Of a stretch of 64,000 nt of DNA, positions 11,098 through 45,548 are shown piece after piece. The translations under genes were made by a program, and so were the position numbers. The DNA is from Octopus vulgaris (Eukaryota). Every line of letters starts with the position of its first letter. The stretch's first letter is position 1. The notes below the pieces were generated by a model. The model searched no databases and was not told the DNA's origin. It saw nothing but the letters and a program-made list of their open reading frames with translations. The DNA is taken from contig OX597816.1 in the NCBI GenBank assembly GCA_951406725.2, forward strand, positions 144,088,001-144,152,000, in the 5' to 3' direction.

Positions 11098-11690
11098 ATA
11101 ATGCGGTTTTTTCAACAGCTTGAACTAAATGTCAGAGGGGAATGGGATAAACTACTTATATTAACTTGCTATAAAAGCAGGTAGTAATTTTATCTTGTCC
11201 TTATTCATAGTGCAAGTTTTGAAGAGTGCATTTCGATTTTAACAACTATTTTTTTCAAAGCTATATTGGAAGTAACAAAGGAGCATATTTGGCATATTTT
11301 GCTTTATGAGTTCAATAAAGACAACAACGCAACGGAAAGTACAAGAAATATTAATGCAGTATATGGGGATTGGACAATAAGCGTAAGGCAGTGTCAATGG
11401 TGGTTCCAGAAATTCCGAGCCATAAACTACAGCCTAGAAGACGAGCCTCATCCTGAAAGATCTGTAGAACTCGACAAGGACATCCTGAAAACCCTGGTGG
11501 AACAAAATCTCATCGTAACTGTTGAGGAACTAGCAGAGAAGCTTGGATTAGGTCATTCAACCATTCATTGAGACCTGTGTGCTATCGGAAAAGTCAGCAA
11601 ATTGGGTCAATGGGTTCCTCACGAACTTTCCGAGTCTAATTGCATGCAGAGAGTGAATGTATGCTTTTCTTTGCTGTCACATCTCACCAC
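11097..11690 (+). mobile_element. Mariner transposon 5' half (partial TIR + N-terminal HTH transposase), truncated
   Basis: ORF 11266-11571 HIWHILLYEF...QWWFQKFR..YSLEDEPHP is a mariner HTH; past a stop, tgggttcctcacgaactt = WVPHEL linker; 5' end matches the TIR/UTR of 16472-16884. Confidence 0.93.
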
Positions 11691-16884: not shown

Positions 16885-18050
16885 TGATATATAACTAATG
16901 TTTTTAATTCATAACTTTGTAGCAATAAATTGTACCAATAATTGTTAATATAAAATAAAAAGATTTTTTTTCGAAAATAGTTTCTTCAAAGATGATAGGG
17001 TTACATAACAAGAATACATTTGATCATAGAAGAACTTGATCAGAGCTGGTTTAGAAATAAAACAGCAAGACATGTTTGTTTATATTTCTAAACTGAATCC
17101 AAGCCGATGGCAATCAACTTCAGACTGTTAATTTTAATCATTAATCTTAATTCACATAAAAGTCTTATGTAGTTCCATTTCACATTTACTGAAGTCTTGA
17201 AAAATGGCATCAATTAGCATTACTATCAACATGACATACATACATACATATAGTTTTTATGTCTAGTTTGCCATGGTTGCATGGATCAGACAGAGGAGGC
17301 AGATTTTCTATGGCTGGACAGCCTTCCTGTTGCCAACTTTTACCTGTTTCCAAGGAAGGGAATATTTCCCTATGGATGACATGTTTTTTGCAGCATAATG
17401 GAAATGAATGACATTGCTTGTATGACAATGACACTCATTTACAAGTATCAAGTCAAAACAAGAAGATACAAATACACACATACACACACGTGCACAACTG
17501 GTTCAGTTTCTGTTTACTAAACCCACTCACAACATTTTGGCTGCCAAAATCCTCAGTCAAACCGTCCAACCCATGCCAGCATGGAAAGCAGACGTTAAAC
17601 TTTGACAACGACGATGATGATAGGTACAAGAAGGAGGGAGTTAGTTGATTAAATCATCCCAGTACTTAACACTAACATTTTGAGAAAGTGCTACACAGTG
17701 GGACTAAGCCTGAAGCCATGTAATTTGAAAGCAAACTTCTTAACCACGCAGCCACATACAGACATTTTTACATACATCACACAGTTACACACACACCAAA
17801 ACAGTTCTATGTAGACAAACAAGGAGATCAAGAAAGCATTTAAAAATAATTGAAAGAAAATTAATTGAACAAATATATTTGGGTTCTTTTTCTAAATGGA
17901 AAGCTATCTTGCATATTTTATATACATATATATCTAACATATACATACTTACTTATGCGTGTAGGTATGTATGGATATATATATATAAACGTATACATAT
18001 ATCATCATCATCGTTTAACGTCCGTTTTCCATGCTAGCATGGGTTGGACG

Positions 18051-18325
18051 AAAGTCGGATGAAGAATTGCATAAATACATACAGACAAATCAAAAAGTCT
18101 GAAGCTGATGAGATGACAGTTCACAATAATCTAAAGGGGAAGTCCTCAAATCCAAAATACAAATGAATCTTACGACCGTTTCCAGGAATGTGCAAAGAAG
18201 TGTGTGGGTAAATCCTTTTCAGCTTCAGTAATGCACATTTCCTTCATCTGAGAATATACATGGATTCAGAATTTTAAATAAAATCATAAAATTATTCATG
18301 ATACTGTAAGAATATGTTTAAGCTG
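18051..18325 (-). mobile_element. Left arm of fold-back (Penelope pseudo-LTR-like) element
   Basis: Reverse complement aligns with 22165-22183 plus 22426-22659; contains a hammerhead-like motif. Confidence 0.8.
18168..18253 (-). ncRNA. Hammerhead-ribozyme-like motif with mutated core (CAGAUGA)
   Basis: Minus: tct-CAGATGA-aggaaatgtgca...tgcacattcctg-GAAA-cggtcg-TA-aga. Confidence 0.55.
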
Positions 18326-18363
18326 ACATAAGTATTTTTCTACTTTAAAATTTTTCTCAATAT

Positions 18364-18526
18364 AGGCACAGGAGTAGCTGTGTGGTAAGTAGCTTGCTTA
18401 CCAACCATACGGTTCTGGGTTCAGTCCTATTATGTGGCACCTTGGGCAAGTGTCTTCTACTATAGCCGCAGGCCAACTTAAGCCTTGTGAGTGGATTTGG
18501 TAGATGGAAACTGAAAGTAGCCTGTC

Positions 18527-18570
<44 letters not shown>

Positions 18571-18765
18571 GTATATATGTTTGTGTGTCTGGGAATGTCC
18601 CTCAACATTTCTTGACAACTGATGCTGGTGCGTTTACGTCCCCCATAACTTAGCAGTTCAGCAAAAGAAACTGATAGAATAAGTCCTGGGGTCGATTTGC
18701 TCGACTAAAGGTCGTGGTTCCAGCAAGGCCACAGTCAAATGACTGAAACAAGTAAAAGAGAGTAT
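18364..18765 (+). mobile_element. Full-length tRNA-derived SINE with internal (TA)n/(TG)n
   Basis: ggagtagctgtgtggtaag...ggttcagtcc head; 3' part ...ggggtcgatttgctcgactaaagg...aaatgactgaaacaagtaaaagagag. Confidence 0.88.
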
Positions 18766-18782
18766 AATAATTATTTAATCTA

Positions 18783-21700
18783 TCATCATCATCATTGTTC
18801 GACCGTGGTCGAGACAATGGAATTTACCATGTTGCGCCAGACTTCACGGTCCATCATAGCATTACGGAGGTCCTGTTGCTGGATGCCTGTATCCCTGGAG
18901 ATTACATCAGGGTAGGAGAGTGTGCGCCCTCTGGTGTTGCGAGTAGATGGCTTCCAGAGGAGAAGAGTAGAAATTACTTCTTTTTCAGCTCTACAACAAT
19001 GTCCAGCAAACTGGACTCTCCTACCCTTCACAAGAGATGACACAGGTGGTAATTTCCCATATATTTGCATTTTAGTTGGATGGCGCCTCCACGAGAGATT
19101 TTGAGCTCTCATAAGGAGGCGAGTGTAGGTTCCATCCAACCGCCTCTCAAGCTTCTTTGATAACGTCCAGGTTTCTGAGCCATATAGTAGGATTGGTTCG
19201 ACTGTGGCTTTGAATATTTCAAGTTTGAAGTCTCTACTTAGATTTGATGACCAGATCTTATGCATGTCATTACAGGCTGACCAGGCCATACCCTTTCTAG
19301 TTAGAAAGTCTTTTCCAGATGATGATATGTATGACCCAAGATATTTATAATCAGAAACCATATTTAAAGGTGCACTGTTGAGAGTGTGGATGATGCAATC
19401 ACTGTTGGACAGGCACTTGTTTATGTATTCAGTTTTGGTCTCATTAAGGTAAAGACCTACACAATTTGAGGCTTGTTCAAGAGATTGTAAAAGAGACTGG
19501 GCATTGGAGAGAGAATCACTGATAAGAGCGATGTCGTCAGCAAAGTCAGTGTCTGTCAAGTACTCAGCTGGGTGTCTGGAACTTCTTCTTGGTTTTATTT
19601 CAAAGCCCTTGCCAGAGATGGTATCAACTGACATACGTAGCACATAATCAACAACAATGATGAAAAGAAATGGGGCGAGTGTGTCTCCCTGCAGTATTCC
19701 GGCCTCAATCGAGAAAGATGATGTTTTTCCATCAGGGGTTAAGATGGTTGAAGACGTATCTGTGTAGAGGACCTTGATGGCAGAAATAATTTTGTCTGGT
19801 ATCCCATAGAGCTTAAGGATTTCAAACATCTTGCACCTATCTACAGAATCGAACGCTTTAGAAAAGTCTACAAATACCATTGCAAGATCGCGATTAAATG
19901 CTTTTGATTCTTCAATAAGTCTGCGCAGGCATAGTATCTGGCTCAGCGTTGAGCGCCCATGTCTGAATCCATTTTGGTTCTTTCGGAGCAAAGGTTCAAC
20001 AAAAAGGACAAGACAATTTAGGATCAGTTTGTTGTACAGTTTTGCAGCAATTGACATTAGAGATATGCCCCTGTAGTTGGTGACGAGGACAAATCGCCTT
20101 TTTTGGGTATTGGAATGATTTGAGACTGGTGCCAAATCTTTGGAGCGACAAAGGTGGAAAGTGTGTGGTTGCAGAGGTTAAGCAAAAGTGTGTGAAATCT
20201 ATCATCCTTCCAAATCACAGCCGGAATGTTGTCGGGACCAAATGCTTTCGAGGCTTTTAGTTGCTTGGTGGCTGCTGTTAGTTCAAATATGGTAAAAGGG
20301 GAGGTGTTGATGTCCAGCGTGTCTGATATAGGCACACTTGGGAGAGTGGGGTTATCAGGGATTTTGGCATTCTTCCCAAGGAGGTTTTTAAAATGGGTTG
20401 ACCAATTTTCTAAACGCTTCTTAGCTGATCCCCCTTTAATTCTAATTGATGACCCAGAATTTTTGCCTGATAGGTCTTTGATGGATTTCCAGGCGAGATG
20501 GTGTTTTTTACTAATGTGCTCTTTCGATAGTTTACTAATTTTGCCATTGATAAATTTGACCTCGGCGTTCAAGTAAGCCTCATCAAGATTCTTCCTGGCA
20601 GCTATGAGTTGGATCTTCAGTGACTGGGATGGAGAACGGTGGTAAGCTAGTGATATAGACTTTAGATGGTTTCTGGCTTCGATGACATTTGGGGAATTAG
20701 AAGGTTTGCTCTGGCCCCTACTCTTCCTTTTGGGAAGAGTAGCCAGTGCAACTTTCTCTGTTGATTTGATGAGGCTGCTGTATACTTCCTCAATGTTCTC
20801 AGCATCTATTTCAGAAGTAGACAGAGATTGAAATTTGTTATAGACCTCAATAGTAAATTGTTTGGACATATCGGGGTTAGATAAGACTTCCTCCCAGTCG
20901 ATCATTTTGATCGGGTGAGGCTTAGTTTTTTTGGATGAGCGAAGACTAAGCTTAACGGTAGCTGATACAATTCTGTGGTCAGAGCCGACAGAACTAAAGG
21001 AAGAGTAGGATCTCAAGTCCTTAACACTATTGCGCCATTTCTTTCGAAAGATGAGGTAGTCAATTTGTGCCCTATCACCAAGTGGGGACTCAAATGTCCA
21101 AAGTTGACCTTTTGGTTTCATAAAAGAATTGTTGGAGGTGTAGAGATTAAATTCCTCCAAGAAGTCTTTGAGCATTTCTCCGTTCCGATTGGTTTTAGAG
21201 TTGAAAGTAAACTTGGTCTCATCGGGTCCTAGTCTAGCATTCAGATCACCAGCTATAACCAGAAAATTATGGAGAGGTACTTGCTCAATGGTTGAACGAA
21301 GGGTTGTATAGAAATTTTCAATTTCGTCTGCCACAGACGAATTATGTGGGCTATACACACATACCAATGTTGTTTTTGGGTTTCCATCTATCTCAAGCAC
21401 CATAATTCTAGGTGAGATTGACTCTATACTCAAGAGAGTATCACTAGCCTTTGATGAAAGTAGAAATCCGATACCTCCAACTGTTGAATTAACAGTATTC
21501 TTTGATGCTGAGGAGGTTACAAGTTGATAAGAACCGACTTGATGGTATTTGAGGATGTTGTCAGGGTGGTAAAATCGGTGTTCTTGGACAGCTATTATAT
21601 CAATGCCATGTGATTCTGCATTTGCACCAAGTTCTTCTAGACGGCCAAGAGAGCCGAGGGTGCGGGCATTGAGGGTGCTGAGTATCGTATGATTTTTACA

Positions 21701-22128
21701 GCTGATGAGGTGTTTGTTTGGTGTTGTTTGGTTGGGGGCTGACTCTTCTCCATCAGGTGATACCCGTCTGTTAAGATTGAGGGCATCACCGTCAATGGAT
21801 GCCCTTGGAGGTGCAACATGATCAGAGACAGGACCCGGCACAGCAGGGGCTGGACCTACATCCGCAGGTATACCATTAGGTCTGGTTCCCTGGGGAAGAG
21901 GAACCCTGGTGCAGTAAATTGTAAATTCCATAGTCTTTTCAAATGGCTAATAATGTGTGCGCGCGCCACTACTACACACATTGGAAAGCATTGTACAACC
22001 AAGTACTAAAGAAGATCTTTCCTCCTCCATGAAACAAAGCTGTTCCCGCTGGACGTCAACCCAGTACTTCTAAGCTACACACTTTAGTTGTACACTATGA
22101 ACATTTGTCCAATGACCTGGAATCCAGG
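18783..22128 (-). mobile_element. Near-full-length RTE-superfamily (RTE-X-like) LINE; 5' boundary approximate
   Basis: Single APE-RT ORF, about 200-bp 5' UTR, (TGA)n tail starting at the stop codon. Confidence 0.93.
18792..21931 (-). CDS. LINE ORF: APE endonuclease + reverse transcriptase (about 1046 aa if the 1-nt deletion at 20087-20088 is restored)
   Basis: APE motifs TLNART, VQEHR, GDLNA, QIDY, SDH; RT motifs PKKGDL/NYRGISL, QNGFR, DFSKAFDS, QGDTLAP, FADD, YKYLG; the two track ORFs join as PKKGDLSLVTNYRG with one extra C. Confidence 0.92.
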
Positions 22129-22183
22129 AATTTATGAAAATTTTATACTTGTATATAATTACAACAGCTTAAACATATTCTTA

Positions 22184-22410
22184 TTTCTTTATTGCTCACA
22201 AGGGGCTAAACACAGAGGGGACGAACAAGGACAGACAAAGGGATTAAGTTGATTATATCGACCCCAGTGCGTAACTGGTACTTAATTTATTGACCCTGAA
22301 AGGATGAAAGGCAAAGTTGACCTCGGCAGAATTTGAACTCAGTGTAGCGGCAGACGAAATACCGCTAAGCATTTTGCCCGGCGTGCTAACATTTCTGCTA
22401 ACTCGACGCC
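22184..22410 (-). mobile_element. Nin/Deu-type SINE, full length, with 15-bp TSD
   Basis: TSD ttaaacatattctta at 22169-22183 and 22411-22425. Confidence 0.92.
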
Positions 22411-22478
22411 TTAAACATATTCTTACAATATCATGAATGATTTTATAACTTTATTTAAAATTCTGAATCCATGTGTAT

Positions 22479-22563
22479 TCTCTGATGAAGGAAATGTGGA
22501 TTATTGAAATGAAAAGGATTTTCCTACATACTTCTTTGCATATTCCTGGAAACGGCTGTAAGA
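22479..22563 (+). ncRNA. Hammerhead ribozyme candidate (minimal type I)
   Basis: tct-CTGATGA(22482)-aggaaatgtg...catattcctg-GAAA(22549)-cggctg-TA(22560)-aga; core intact, stem I short. Confidence 0.62.
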
Positions 22564-25171
22564 TTCTTTTGTATTTTGGATTATTTTGAATCGTCACCTC
22601 ATCAGCTTGAGACTTTTTGATTTGTCTGTATGTCTTTATGCAATCCTCCATCTGACTTTGATTTGGGCATGGAATTACACTATAATATGTATATATATGT
22701 TTTTATGCTATATGTTCACATATCTATAACGGCTTATATATACCCTCTGTGCTCAGATATATGTTGGCTTTCATGAGAAATATTATCGACCCCGAAATTT
22801 GTCTCTAATTGATACTATGTATGTGTGTGTGTATATGTATGTATGTATACATACATATACAGACATGTATACACACATATACACACACTTTTTCAGCATA
22901 TCCAAGAATTACATCACATTACATTGCTGTTTCAATAATTTCACACTTCTACTAGTTAAGAAAAGAATATCACAGATAATTTTTTTTTTTTCTCTTGCTT
23001 TACTTTGGTGCAGGTGTTTCACATTAAAAGAGCTCTTCCTAATACCAATTCTTATGATCTTAAAACCTATATTAGATAACTAGTTTCTAGACAGAGCTAG
23101 GAGTTGCAAACTGGAGCAAATTCTGTACCTTGCAATGCTTTATTACAAATGCAAAAGGGAGACACCGACATTTGATTTCTGAGTCACATAACAACAATAC
23201 TTTTAACTACAGCAGCCCTTTGCTTTGTGTGTAGCTAGCAGTGTTTGTGTACGTTTTGATTGGTTATTGTCAATAAACAGCACAGACAGAAACATACAGA
23301 CAATAGCTTTTAAAAACACAAAAAAAATAATTTTCTCCTTTTGTTAGTGCTTATAAAGTATAGAGATGGGAGTAGTGACAAAGTATGTGCCGGAGGTGGG
23401 AGTGTGAAGGGAGTAGCTTTCGAGGGATTGGGAGATGATTTCTGGCAAACTGGGCTGACTTTCACACGCAGCTAAATAAATAAATAAGAGAGGGTGATGA
23501 TAATGAGAAATAAGATAACTATGTAGAGGGATGAACTTGTGCTAATAGGTACAAATAAGGGAGAGGAAAGAGGTTCAGAAGGTAAGGAATTACACATCAG
23601 TAAAATAGGGGAGCTCTCTTGAAAATGCATTGTGTGTGATCATTCATGTATGCGTCTGTGTGTGTGCATGCATGCATGTGTGAACTCATGCATAAAATTT
23701 TCTTTATATTGTGTGCAGGCTGTAGAGGGAAAAAAAAAAGGATGGAAAAATACGATTACTTATGAAATTTGGTAATTGTACTAAAGAACTGAACCAATGA
23801 GAAAATTAAGGATTTGAGCAATAAATATATAACGAAAGCATGTCTCATAACATATTTGTTCTAAACATAAGAATGAGTGCTAAGAAGGAAAGTAAGCACG
23901 GCAAAGAGATAAAAATAACATATATATACACAAAGAACCAGACAGTAAGGGGAAGAGGAATGACAGAAGCAGAAAATGAGAAGGCAGCAAGATTAAGAAA
24001 TGTTGGTATGAGAGGAGGAGAGAGAGAGAGAAAATGGAAACGGGAGGAAGGGAGTTAAATTCTTTTCTTTTGTTAAATGCCGATAATGGCATTAGAGATA
24101 GATTTCTGAATGTTTCTCAAAGAAAGGCCACAGTGAGAGGAAAGAAAGAAGAAAGAACTGTGATAGGTTCTGAATAAATATCGTTGGTTTAGTTATTCTT
24201 TGAAAATGGTGAGATTCTGTAGGAGTCGTTGCTGTTTTTAATTCCTTTTATAAAGTAAACTTCTATTTACTTTCAATTTAAAACTGAAACTTTCAGCCAG
24301 ATTCATTTTCTAAATTCTTCTACCATAAGATGTTTTTGTTTTTAATTCTACCTTTTTTGCTTGTTTTTTTTTGTTTTTTTTTCCAGCCATATTCCAGTTT
24401 TCTTAAATGTCTATTTATACACTATTTACTTATTTTTGTTGCTTTTTAACCCTTAGTACGTGTTAATAGAGCAGACCTATGATCAATTGCATTCCAGCCA
24501 TGACAATCCCATCTTTTACTCTGTGTAAAATGCACTTCAGATCACATTATTCGATATGTTCTTTGATAAGACAAAACGGTGTAATTTGATTGAGTGTTTG
24601 GTTGCCGTTTCTAGCAAAACAAGAAACAACAGATACACTCGCTGAAATGTTAACAGTGGATATGGTTGATGCCATTCAACTGCAATGTCTCTTTGTTCTG
24701 TTCAATTTTATTTGCTTTCCAGGCACACTTAATCACTTGTCATTGTTGAACAGAGTGTAAGAGAGGAAGGATGGAGGACAGGATGATAAATAAATAAGGA
24801 ATCCTTATTTTTAAGTTCAATACAATATCGTGCTCTAAACCACATTGTTTCAACACGGTTTAAATTGCAGCTTCCATAACGAAATCATGTAAGTGTAGAC
24901 GTTTAAACGCAAACACTTATATAATCAAATCAAGGAGTTTGCAACATTAAGTTGACCTTGGTGAGCACAATTTGTACAATCACCCTCCATTCGGACATAA
25001 GAAATAACAGCCAAATCTTCCTCAAATCACAACATGTTTTGGAAAAGGAAAGGTGACATAGAATAATAATGTCATCCTAGACACCATTTTGACAGGGTGG
25101 TCATGACAATAACATCTATAATCTTAGATCTGATCGCTTAATATTGACCTAGGCTTAAACAATATGAAACT

Positions 25172-44810: not shown

Positions 44811-45548
44811 AAGTAATGATATTTTGAATGCATTTAAAACGTACGTTTCAGATAATTGCGCAATAAGCAAAAAAGAGAATTTCATCTCTTTCGCAAAATG
44901 TATCTCAGTTAAGACAAAACAAGATCTGGACAAATTAATAGAATTCCCTCTTTATATCCGGTCGGAGCACTTTTATAGGAAATATTAGTTGCTACCAAAG
45001 GACTAAAATCGTGTTACACAGTGTTATAAGTACAAGTAGCCTACTTAAGTTTTGTACCGTTGTGGTACAACATCGCTTGATCATAAGCACTTCGTTTAAG
45101 GACTTCAATGTAACATTCTGCATTATTTTCGAATATCTCTTAGTTGGCAGAAAGATTAGAGATCCTAATGGATATGTTCTTAACTATGCTTTTTTATTTT
45201 ATGAAATTATTTACCTATAACTTATTTTGCATTGACTTCGTTCTATGTTTCTACTTTTCAGTTTTCTTAATCTTAATCTACCTCATACTATTTCTATTCT
45301 TTATTCTCTCTCCTTCTCTGTCTTCCACTTTCCTCCCTGTAAATATGCTATCGTTCCTGGCCATGTCCTCTCCTTATCTTGTAGGCGACATAAAGTGCCC
45401 CGACCGTATATAAAGGGTGAATTCCATTAATTTGTTCATATTTTGTTATGTCTTAATTGAGAAACGTTTTGCGAAAGAGATGAAATTCTCTTTTTTACCT
45501 ATTTTATTTGAAACGTACTTTTTAAATGCATTCAAGATATCATTACTT
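44811..45548. mobile_element. Fold-back element, about 165-bp diverged inverted arms
   Basis: 44811-44976 vs 45390-45548 (aagagaatttcatctctttcgcaaaa / ttttgcgaaagagatgaaattctctt). Confidence 0.8.

What the first reader, a model, noticed from the sequence alone, without database searches (positions are those of the whole stretch)
18051..22659. Young RTE LINE nested inside a fold-back element whose two arms each carry a hammerhead
Seen: 18051-18325 and 22165-22659 are diverged ~275-bp inverted arms. Between them lie a full SINE and the near-intact LINE; a second SINE with a 15-bp TSD interrupts the right arm. Both arms contain the same hammerhead in opposite orientations. Inference: an old inverted pseudo-LTR hairpin took three later retro-insertions. 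A read-through transcript could form long dsRNA looping out the whole LINE, and the minus-strand motif lies about 530 nt past the LINE 3' end.
Basis: partly seen in the sequence, partly recalled or inferred. Interest (0 to 1): 0.72.

Follow-up and report, generated by a model that had tools for sequence, protein, structure and literature searches.

The report
Back-to-back Penelope ends with nested LINE
The two inverted arms are decayed, back-to-back ends of a Penelope-type jumping gene, likely pasted in one event, into which two short repeats and a young but broken LINE later jumped; this is ordinary nested transposon debris, and its hammerhead-like motifs are likely dead.

Summary
The arms belong to a dispersed family (46 and 52 matches, lower bounds). 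Longer copies run from an RT-thumb region through a Cys linker and GIY-YIG endonuclease straight into the arm, so the arm is the 3' end of a Neptune/Nematis-type Penelope-like element (PLE). Head-to-head pairs occur at 12 of 27 other loci and are described in print. Corrections: the junction is at 18325/18326, so both SINEs and the LINE all sit inside the right copy (18326-22816). The LINE is young (99.5-99.7% to its closest kin) but frameshifted, 5'-truncated by about 970 nt or more, and has no TSD. Only the right arm keeps the strict hammerhead core; the left one, downstream of the LINE, has U4A. No RNA evidence for read-through, dsRNA or editing was obtained, and comparable inverted pairs are common in the window. 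A side result: copies end at two fixed sites about 75 nt apart, one short and one long in 8 of 9 paired loci; this scan noted that pattern before in other families of this genome. Ordinary; low interest.

The parts
18001..18050 (-). 50-nt 3' fragment of another retro-repeat with an (ATC)n tail; abuts the left copy where its outer part is lost
   Evidence: several copies in the window; reads of other copies continue past 18050; no TSD found and no outer PLE sequence in 17400-18050
18051..18325 (-). Left PLE copy: 5'-truncated piece of the 3' UTR/pseudo-LTR; outer (3') end missing
18171..18253 (-). Degenerate type I hammerhead-like motif, core CAGAUGA (U4A)
   Evidence: found only with a relaxed core
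18326..18363 (+). 5' start of the right PLE copy; last codons of the GIY-YIG ORF (R-H-K-Y-F-S-T); head-to-head junction at 18325/18326
   Evidence: 31 of 35 nt match L032, 34 of 35 match L119; translation of family copies
18364..18760 (+). SINE 1, inserted in the right PLE copy
   Evidence: 86-88% to other copies in the window; no exact TSD of 6 nt or more; imperfect 5-nt repeat by eye
18761..18783 (+). Right PLE copy, continuation between SINE 1 and the LINE tail
   Evidence: 22 of 23 nt match L032
18784..22078 (-). Young RTE-type LINE: single APE+RT ORF with one 1-nt frameshift near 20086, (TGA)n tail, 5'-truncated, no TSD; about 140 nt of PLE sequence missing at the site
22085..22183 (+). 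Right PLE copy, 3' UTR, between the LINE 5' junction and SINE 2
22184..22409 (.). SINE 2 with a 16-bp exact TSD (22168-22183 and 22410-22425)
22410..22816 (+). Right PLE copy, pseudo-LTR part, ending at the family's short 3' site in a TA/TG microsatellite
22479..22563 (+). Type I hammerhead-like motif: CUGAUGA 22482, GAAA 22549, GUA 22558-22560; 3-bp stem I, long stem II, weakened stem II base and stem III palindrome
   Evidence: no Rfam match

Best explanation
The arms are two 5'-truncated 3' ends of a Neptune/Nematis-type Penelope-like retrotransposon lying head-to-head, likely made in one insertion into a TA-rich microsatellite, and the right copy was later interrupted by two SINEs and a young RTE-type LINE; the result is likely inert. 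Shown: family membership of the arms, their contiguity with GIY-YIG and thumb coding sequence in longer copies, the junction at 18325/18326, the nesting order (PLE first), the LINE's youth, frameshift and truncation, and the state of the two motifs. Inferred: the PLE enzyme cut both DNA strands and primed reverse transcription on each, giving two outward-pointing 3' ends with independent 5' truncation points; the LINE integrated with a target-site deletion instead of a TSD; a further retro-fragment removed the left outer end. Inferred: the hammerhead is the element's inherited pseudo-LTR motif; any one transcript carries only one motif in sense, and pairing of the arms would cover it, so cleavage here is unlikely.
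For: L117 runs without a break from thumb/linker through GIY-YIG into the arm; the window matches its positions 1007-1441. GIY-YIG Pfam hits at E 0.0011 and 0.0065, below the curated cut-off. 31-48% identity of family pieces to an 806-aa RT+EN ORF in the same genome, whose Atlas neighbours carry HTH_animal and GIY-YIG. Head-to-head pairs at 12 of 27 other loci with variable junctions. Two fixed outer ends in microsatellites: 23 short and 18 long of 43 scored, one short plus one long in 8 of 9 two-ended loci. Arms are mutual nearest neighbours among 44 (89.2% against 88.0 and 86.1; medians 83.4 and 81.2). PMC8557442 (passages) describes the adjacent inverted 5'-truncated copy, the one-sided tail and microsatellite bias; PMC4209133 (parts 1-2 of 4) describes PLE hammerheads 100-700 bp apart on opposite strands and no cleavage by single motifs.
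Against: No copy of this family with the RT catalytic core was found; the RT link rests on thumb and N-terminal pieces and on a related family. The sister grouping of the arms has only 0.76 FastTree support, the margin for the left arm is 1.2 points, and three other inverted pairs (L019, L025, L171) do not group. The left outer end is lost, so flanks of the original target cannot be compared. Pfam gives the 806-aa ORF no hit. My hammerhead descriptor was written after seeing the motif and hits only 1 of 13 other PLE 3' regions.
Confidence: 0.9

Rival explanations
1. Two independent PLE insertions: one copy landed at the 5' end of the other by chance or by homing to its own AT-rich sequence.
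For: The family is dispersed; arm-arm identity is only slightly above the next-best copy; PMC11167929 (parts 1-2 of 4) reports that a PLE protein cuts its own ORF-pLTR junction.
Against: Head-to-head abutment with no flank; same geometry at 12 of 27 loci; same subfamily and mutual nearest neighbours.
Confidence: 0.06
2. A non-autonomous fold-back DNA transposon (long-TIR MITE) whose centre took insertions.
For: Palindromic copies of 500-1000 nt exist.
Against: Junctions vary from locus to locus, 15 of 27 loci are single arms, the two outer ends usually differ, and inward extension gives GIY-YIG and RT-thumb sequence, not a transposase.
Confidence: 0.01
3. The locus is functional: read-through RNA pairs the arms into dsRNA that loops out the LINE and is edited or silenced, or the minus-strand ribozyme trims LINE read-through.
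For: Predicted arm duplex of -330 kcal/mol, longest perfect helix 25 bp; left motif is in the LINE's sense, about 534 nt downstream.
Against: Left core has U4A; the LINE lacks about 970 nt or more of 5' sequence and is frameshifted; the arms predate the LINE; 12 inverted pairs of 90 nt or more at 80% or more lie in the window, 3 within 5 kb; no Pfam sign of a host exon among the 100 longest of 170 frames; no RNA run held more than 0.20 of the words.
Confidence: 0.03

Closest known systems
EN+ Penelope-like elements of the Neptune/Nematis type with inverted 5'-truncated copies (PMC8557442, passages)
   Same: C-terminal GIY-YIG after a Cys-rich linker, strong 5' truncation, adjacent inverted truncated copy, one-sided tail, microsatellite targets, hammerhead in the pseudo-LTR.
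   Different: Tail is about 75 nt here against 30-40 bp in the paper; no full-length copy of this family was recovered; Neptune versus Nematis was not resolved.
Minimal/variant type I hammerheads of metazoan PLEs (PMC4209133, parts 1-2 of 4)
   Same: Extra nucleotide after A9, long helix II, short helix I, small palindromic helix III, pairs on opposite strands a few hundred bases apart.
   Different: Helix II carries an insert of about 45 nt, and by my register an extra G lies 5' of G12; both window copies have lost the G10.1-C11.1 pair and the perfect palindrome, the left also U4.
PAc, Poseidon of Anolis carolinensis (PMC11167929, parts 1-2 of 4)
   Same: Two fixed internal reverse-transcription start sites explain short and long 3' ends; both strands are cut and extended; the hammerhead is dispensable in vitro.
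   Different: Different clade; the paper does not test pairing of one short and one long end in inverted insertions in the parts I read.
Recently active RTE LINEs of Octopus (PMC9115989 and PMC13282606, passages)
   Same: Young single-ORF APE+RT family with intact kin (1051 aa).
   Different: Identity with RTE-2_OV was not tested; this copy is truncated and frameshifted; the host species is inferred, not given.

Membership tests
EN+ Penelope-like element | C-terminal GIY-YIG endonuclease with CCHH-type motif | tested here: met
   Family copies translate to YIG...RYRAH...CKLC...CRH; Pfam GIY-YIG E 0.0011 and 0.0065, under the curated cut-off
EN+ Penelope-like element | PLE-type RT upstream of the EN in one ORF | tested here: inconclusive
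   Thumb region (L139, L117) and N-terminal pieces (L131) found, catalytic core not found in this family; a related 806-aa ORF has RT motifs by eye (motif names recalled), no Pfam hit
EN+ Penelope-like element | 5'-truncated copies, inverted truncated copy at the 5' end | tested here: met
   12 of 27 loci head-to-head with variable junctions
EN+ Penelope-like element | Optional 3' tail and microsatellite targets | tested here: met
   Two end classes about 75 nt apart, 23 short and 18 long of 43, mostly followed by TA/CA/TG repeats
EN+ Penelope-like element | Hammerhead motif in the pseudo-LTR | tested here: met
   23 of 39 copies keep CUGANGA, GAAA and NUH; strict descriptor 1 hit in the window, 1 hit in 20 shuffles; no Rfam support
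Neptune or Nematis clade | Cys-rich Zn-finger-like linker between RT and EN | tested here: met
   CNC...CPLxGxC in L034, L035; definition from PMC8557442 passages
Neptune or Nematis clade | Placement in an RT tree with reference clades | not testable with these tools
   No reference PLE sequences were available from a tool
Active hammerhead ribozyme | Intact core and self-cleavage | tested here: not met
   Left motif has U4A; both have a weakened stem II base and stem III; MFE folds do not form the three-way junction. Cleavage itself cannot be tested here
RTE-clade LINE | Single ORF with APE and RT, no ORF1, short tandem-repeat 3' tail | tested here: met
   1051-aa frame in 6 of 16 fetched kin; Pfam; longest ATG frame in 972 nt upstream is 33 aa and the stop lies in the TGA tail. 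Feature list recalled
RTE-clade LINE | RT phylogeny | not tested
   No tree built; the RTE label rests on anatomy
Fold-back DNA transposon / MITE | Fixed symmetric termini, TSD, transposase partner | tested here: not met
   Unequal outer ends, variable centres, GIY-YIG linkage
Non-LTR retrozyme | Tandem non-coding units each with a type I hammerhead | tested here: not met
   No tandem units; arms continue into coding PLE sequence; definition from bioRxiv 10.64898/2026.07.22.740005 passages

The most novel reading that the evidence does not exclude
Head-to-head insertions of this protein-coding Neptune/Nematis-type family follow a one-short, one-long rule with an unusually long tail of about 75 nt, recording a dimeric PLE enzyme that primes both cut DNA strands at two fixed internal sites of the element RNA; the family's hammerhead is a variant with an extra A and G facing each other at the base of a long stem II. 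The window's pair would be one decayed product (short end right, long end lost on the left).
Probability: 0.45. Interest if true: 0.35.

Novelty: new member of a known kind. Interest (0 to 1): 0.15.

Why it matters
As a locus it matters little: it is a clean example of a known Penelope insertion geometry overprinted by SINE and LINE insertions. It shows that fold-back repeats with opposed hammerheads in this genome should be read as PLE 3' ends before any regulatory role is proposed. The family-level statistic on short and long ends gives a genomic test of how PLEs make inverted insertions, a step that PMC8557442 lists as not yet understood. The LINE family is very young and has intact members, which is of use to those who study active RTEs in octopuses.

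Tried and rejected
Rfam: no hit at gathering score in the window; only chance snoRNA hits on the right arm at E up to 10; only microsatellite-driven miRNA hits on L065, L120, L117. MITE/fold-back DNA transposon reading dropped. Searches for a family copy with the RT core gave only thumb or N-terminal pieces or more distant families. Pfam and PDB did not recognise the 806-aa ORF beyond a weak GIY-YIG structure match at E 0.58. An apparent shared deletion in both arms was dropped as evidence because the right arm's larger deletion covers it. Empty-site test: raw-read runs X22 and X23 gave almost no cover of the LINE or arms and are uninformative; X3 and X5 hold both arms as contigs (X3: 1 and 2 differences; X5 left arm 1 difference). 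No contig of X2, X3, X9 or X11 bridged the LINE 5' junction, but a hole proves nothing. One X3 contig looked like a LINE-free allele (one piece listed with 0 differences), but its 227-nt spacer and diagnostic letters match the paralog L004 (228 nt), so I did not count it. RNA: the runs found held 0.20 or less of the words and are contigs only; none was laid, so expression, strand and editing are untested. Host gene: Pfam on the 100 longest of 170 frames found only a mariner HTH; short exons would be missed. The search of earlier findings near this place returned nothing. The effect of U4A on cleavage is recalled; PMC6155905 passages only confirm 15 conserved core nucleotides and the uridine turn. 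Supplements of the cited papers were not read; they may list this family or motif.

Full report
Setting. The window is G000:C3:144088001-144152000 of a 2.8-Gb animal genome. Its SINEs look octopus-like (recalled; earlier notes say the same); the species is an inference.

Observation. The inverted arms are real: three ungapped blocks of 99, 85 and 73 nt at 92, 88 and 90%, one BLAST alignment of 272 nt at 82.7%, E 2e-78, 89.2% over 250 aligned columns. SINE 2 has an exact 16-bp TSD; SINE 1 has no exact TSD of 6 nt or more. The LINE carries APE and RT domains.

What the arms are. The left arm has 46 matches in the genome and the right 52, both lower bounds (40 of 85 and 40 of 90 candidates scored). 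Following the family inward gave copies that translate to a thumb-like region, a CNC...CPLxGxC linker and a GIY-YIG domain ending in CKLC...CRH (Pfam GIY-YIG E 0.0011 and 0.0065, under the cut-off). L117 runs contiguously from this coding sequence into the arm, and the window matches its positions 1007-1441. These pieces are 31-48% identical to an 806-aa ORF elsewhere in the genome (L120) with RT motifs read by eye; Pfam does not recognise it, the Atlas places it near HTH_animal and GIY-YIG clusters at 0.96-0.98. L139 reaches the thumb and L131 holds N-terminal pieces, but no copy of this family with the RT catalytic core was found. PMC8557442 (passages) assigns the Cys linker to Neptune and Nematis PLEs. 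The arm is therefore the 3' UTR/pseudo-LTR of such an element.

True anatomy. Bases 18326-18360 match the last codons of the family's endonuclease (31 of 35 to L032; 34 of 35 to L119), and 18761-18783 and 22085-22183 continue the same strand. So the right copy starts at 18326, directly against the truncated 5' end of the left copy, and ends at 22816 in a microsatellite. SINE 1, the LINE and SINE 2 all lie in the right copy. The left copy lacks its outer part; a 50-nt tailed fragment of another repeat sits there and no outer PLE sequence is found in 17400-18050.

Is the pair one event? Among 27 other arm loci (the window's two and one duplicate left out), 12 are head-to-head with junctions at different places and 15 are single. 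Of 43 scored outer ends, 23 fall at a short site, 18 at a long site about 75 nt further, one in between and one is the reference itself; 8 of 9 loci with two scored ends have one of each, L149 has two long. The window's right copy is short. The two arms are mutual nearest neighbours among 44 sequences (89.2% against 88.0 and 86.1), with FastTree support of only 0.76; two other pairs group (L161, L166) and three do not (L019, L025, L171). PMC8557442 states that an inverted 5'-truncated copy adjacent to the 5' end and a 30-40-bp one-sided tail are usual in PLEs. PMC11167929 (parts 1-2 of 4) shows a PLE protein cutting and extending both strands and starting at two internal sites that define the tail. 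One event with priming on both strands is the likely origin (inferred).

The hammerheads. The right arm has CUGAUGA at 22482, GAAA at 22549 and GUA at 22558; the left has CAGAUGA at 18250 on the minus strand. 23 of 39 copies keep the core. A descriptor of mine finds the right motif as the only strict hit in 64 kb, the left only with a relaxed core, 1 hit in 20 shuffles, and a like motif with different paired letters in a distant PLE family (L121), 1 of 13 3' regions scanned; the descriptor was written after seeing the motif. Rfam gives nothing. PMC4209133 (parts 1-2 of 4) describes PLE hammerheads with an extra base after A9, long helix II, short helix I, pairs 100-700 bp apart on opposite strands, and no cleavage by single motifs. 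Before the inserts the two motifs here would have been a few hundred bases apart (inference). By my register both copies have lost G10.1-C11.1 and the helix III palindrome, and neither MFE fold shows the junction. A transcript carries one motif in sense and its complement in the other arm, so dimer cleavage is not available (inference).

The LINE. It is 99.5-99.7% identical to its closest kin; 6 of 16 fetched kin have a 1051-aa frame, while this copy lacks one base near 20086. Kin continue 5' of 22078, two sharing 972 nt, so this copy is truncated. It has no TSD although some kin show one by eye, and about 140 nt of PLE sequence is missing at the site against L032: likely a target-site deletion. 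Young RTE families are reported in Octopus (PMC13282606 and PMC9115989, passages); identity with RTE-2_OV was not tested.

The dsRNA idea. The arms could pair (-330 kcal/mol, longest perfect helix 25 bp), but the window holds 12 inverted pairs of 90 nt or more at 80% or more, 3 of them within 5 kb. No RNA run was informative, no host exon was seen among the 100 longest of 170 frames, and the LINE has lost its 5' region. Passive pairing in a stray transcript is not excluded; function is unsupported. Presence or absence of the LINE in other individuals stayed open.

Earlier notes of this scan. Other families in this genome were noted with head-to-head arms and two fixed ends; I took the one-short, one-long reading from there and tested it on this family. 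Nothing was noted near this place.

Verdict. A real, correctly suspected Penelope structure of a published kind, with ordinary nested insertions. New member of a known kind; interest 0.15. I did not search specifically for a published description of this family; searches listed none by title or abstract start, and supplements were not read.

Noticed in passing
L120:1987-4404 (G000:C5), L122, L123, L130: A much younger PLE family with an 806-aa RT+EN frame; copies 95-99% identical in protein, two of them (L122, L123) in head-to-head pairs. My descriptor found no hammerhead in 900 nt after the ORF.
   Followed up: partly
L121, about 530 nt after the endonuclease match: Clean type I hammerhead-like motif with a long GC-rich stem II in a distant PLE family with a 644-aa frame.
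   Followed up: partly
L131:2019-3732: Family copy in which a piece of the ORF N-terminus lies inverted against the truncated 3' part, like a twin-primed insertion.
   Followed up: partly
L065, L067, L069-L071 upstream of the match: The young LINE family has a long 5' region (972 nt shared by two copies) with no long ORF and no Rfam ribozyme hit; many copies break 77-86 nt upstream of the window's truncation point.
   Followed up: partly
window 44811-45548: Inverted pair of 163 nt at 86% with a 419-nt spacer; a weak match to the PLE thumb region (E 3e-5) lies between at 45044-45190. Possibly another head-to-head PLE remnant.
   Followed up: no
window 11188-11568: Mariner/Mos1 transposase HTH fragment (Pfam HTH_48, E 5e-20).
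   Followed up: no
window 17563-17605 and 18008-18050: Two short copies of a tailed retro-fragment in inverted orientation, 402 nt apart.
   Followed up: no
L077: A LINE copy with part of its RT region inverted at the 5' end.
   Followed up: no
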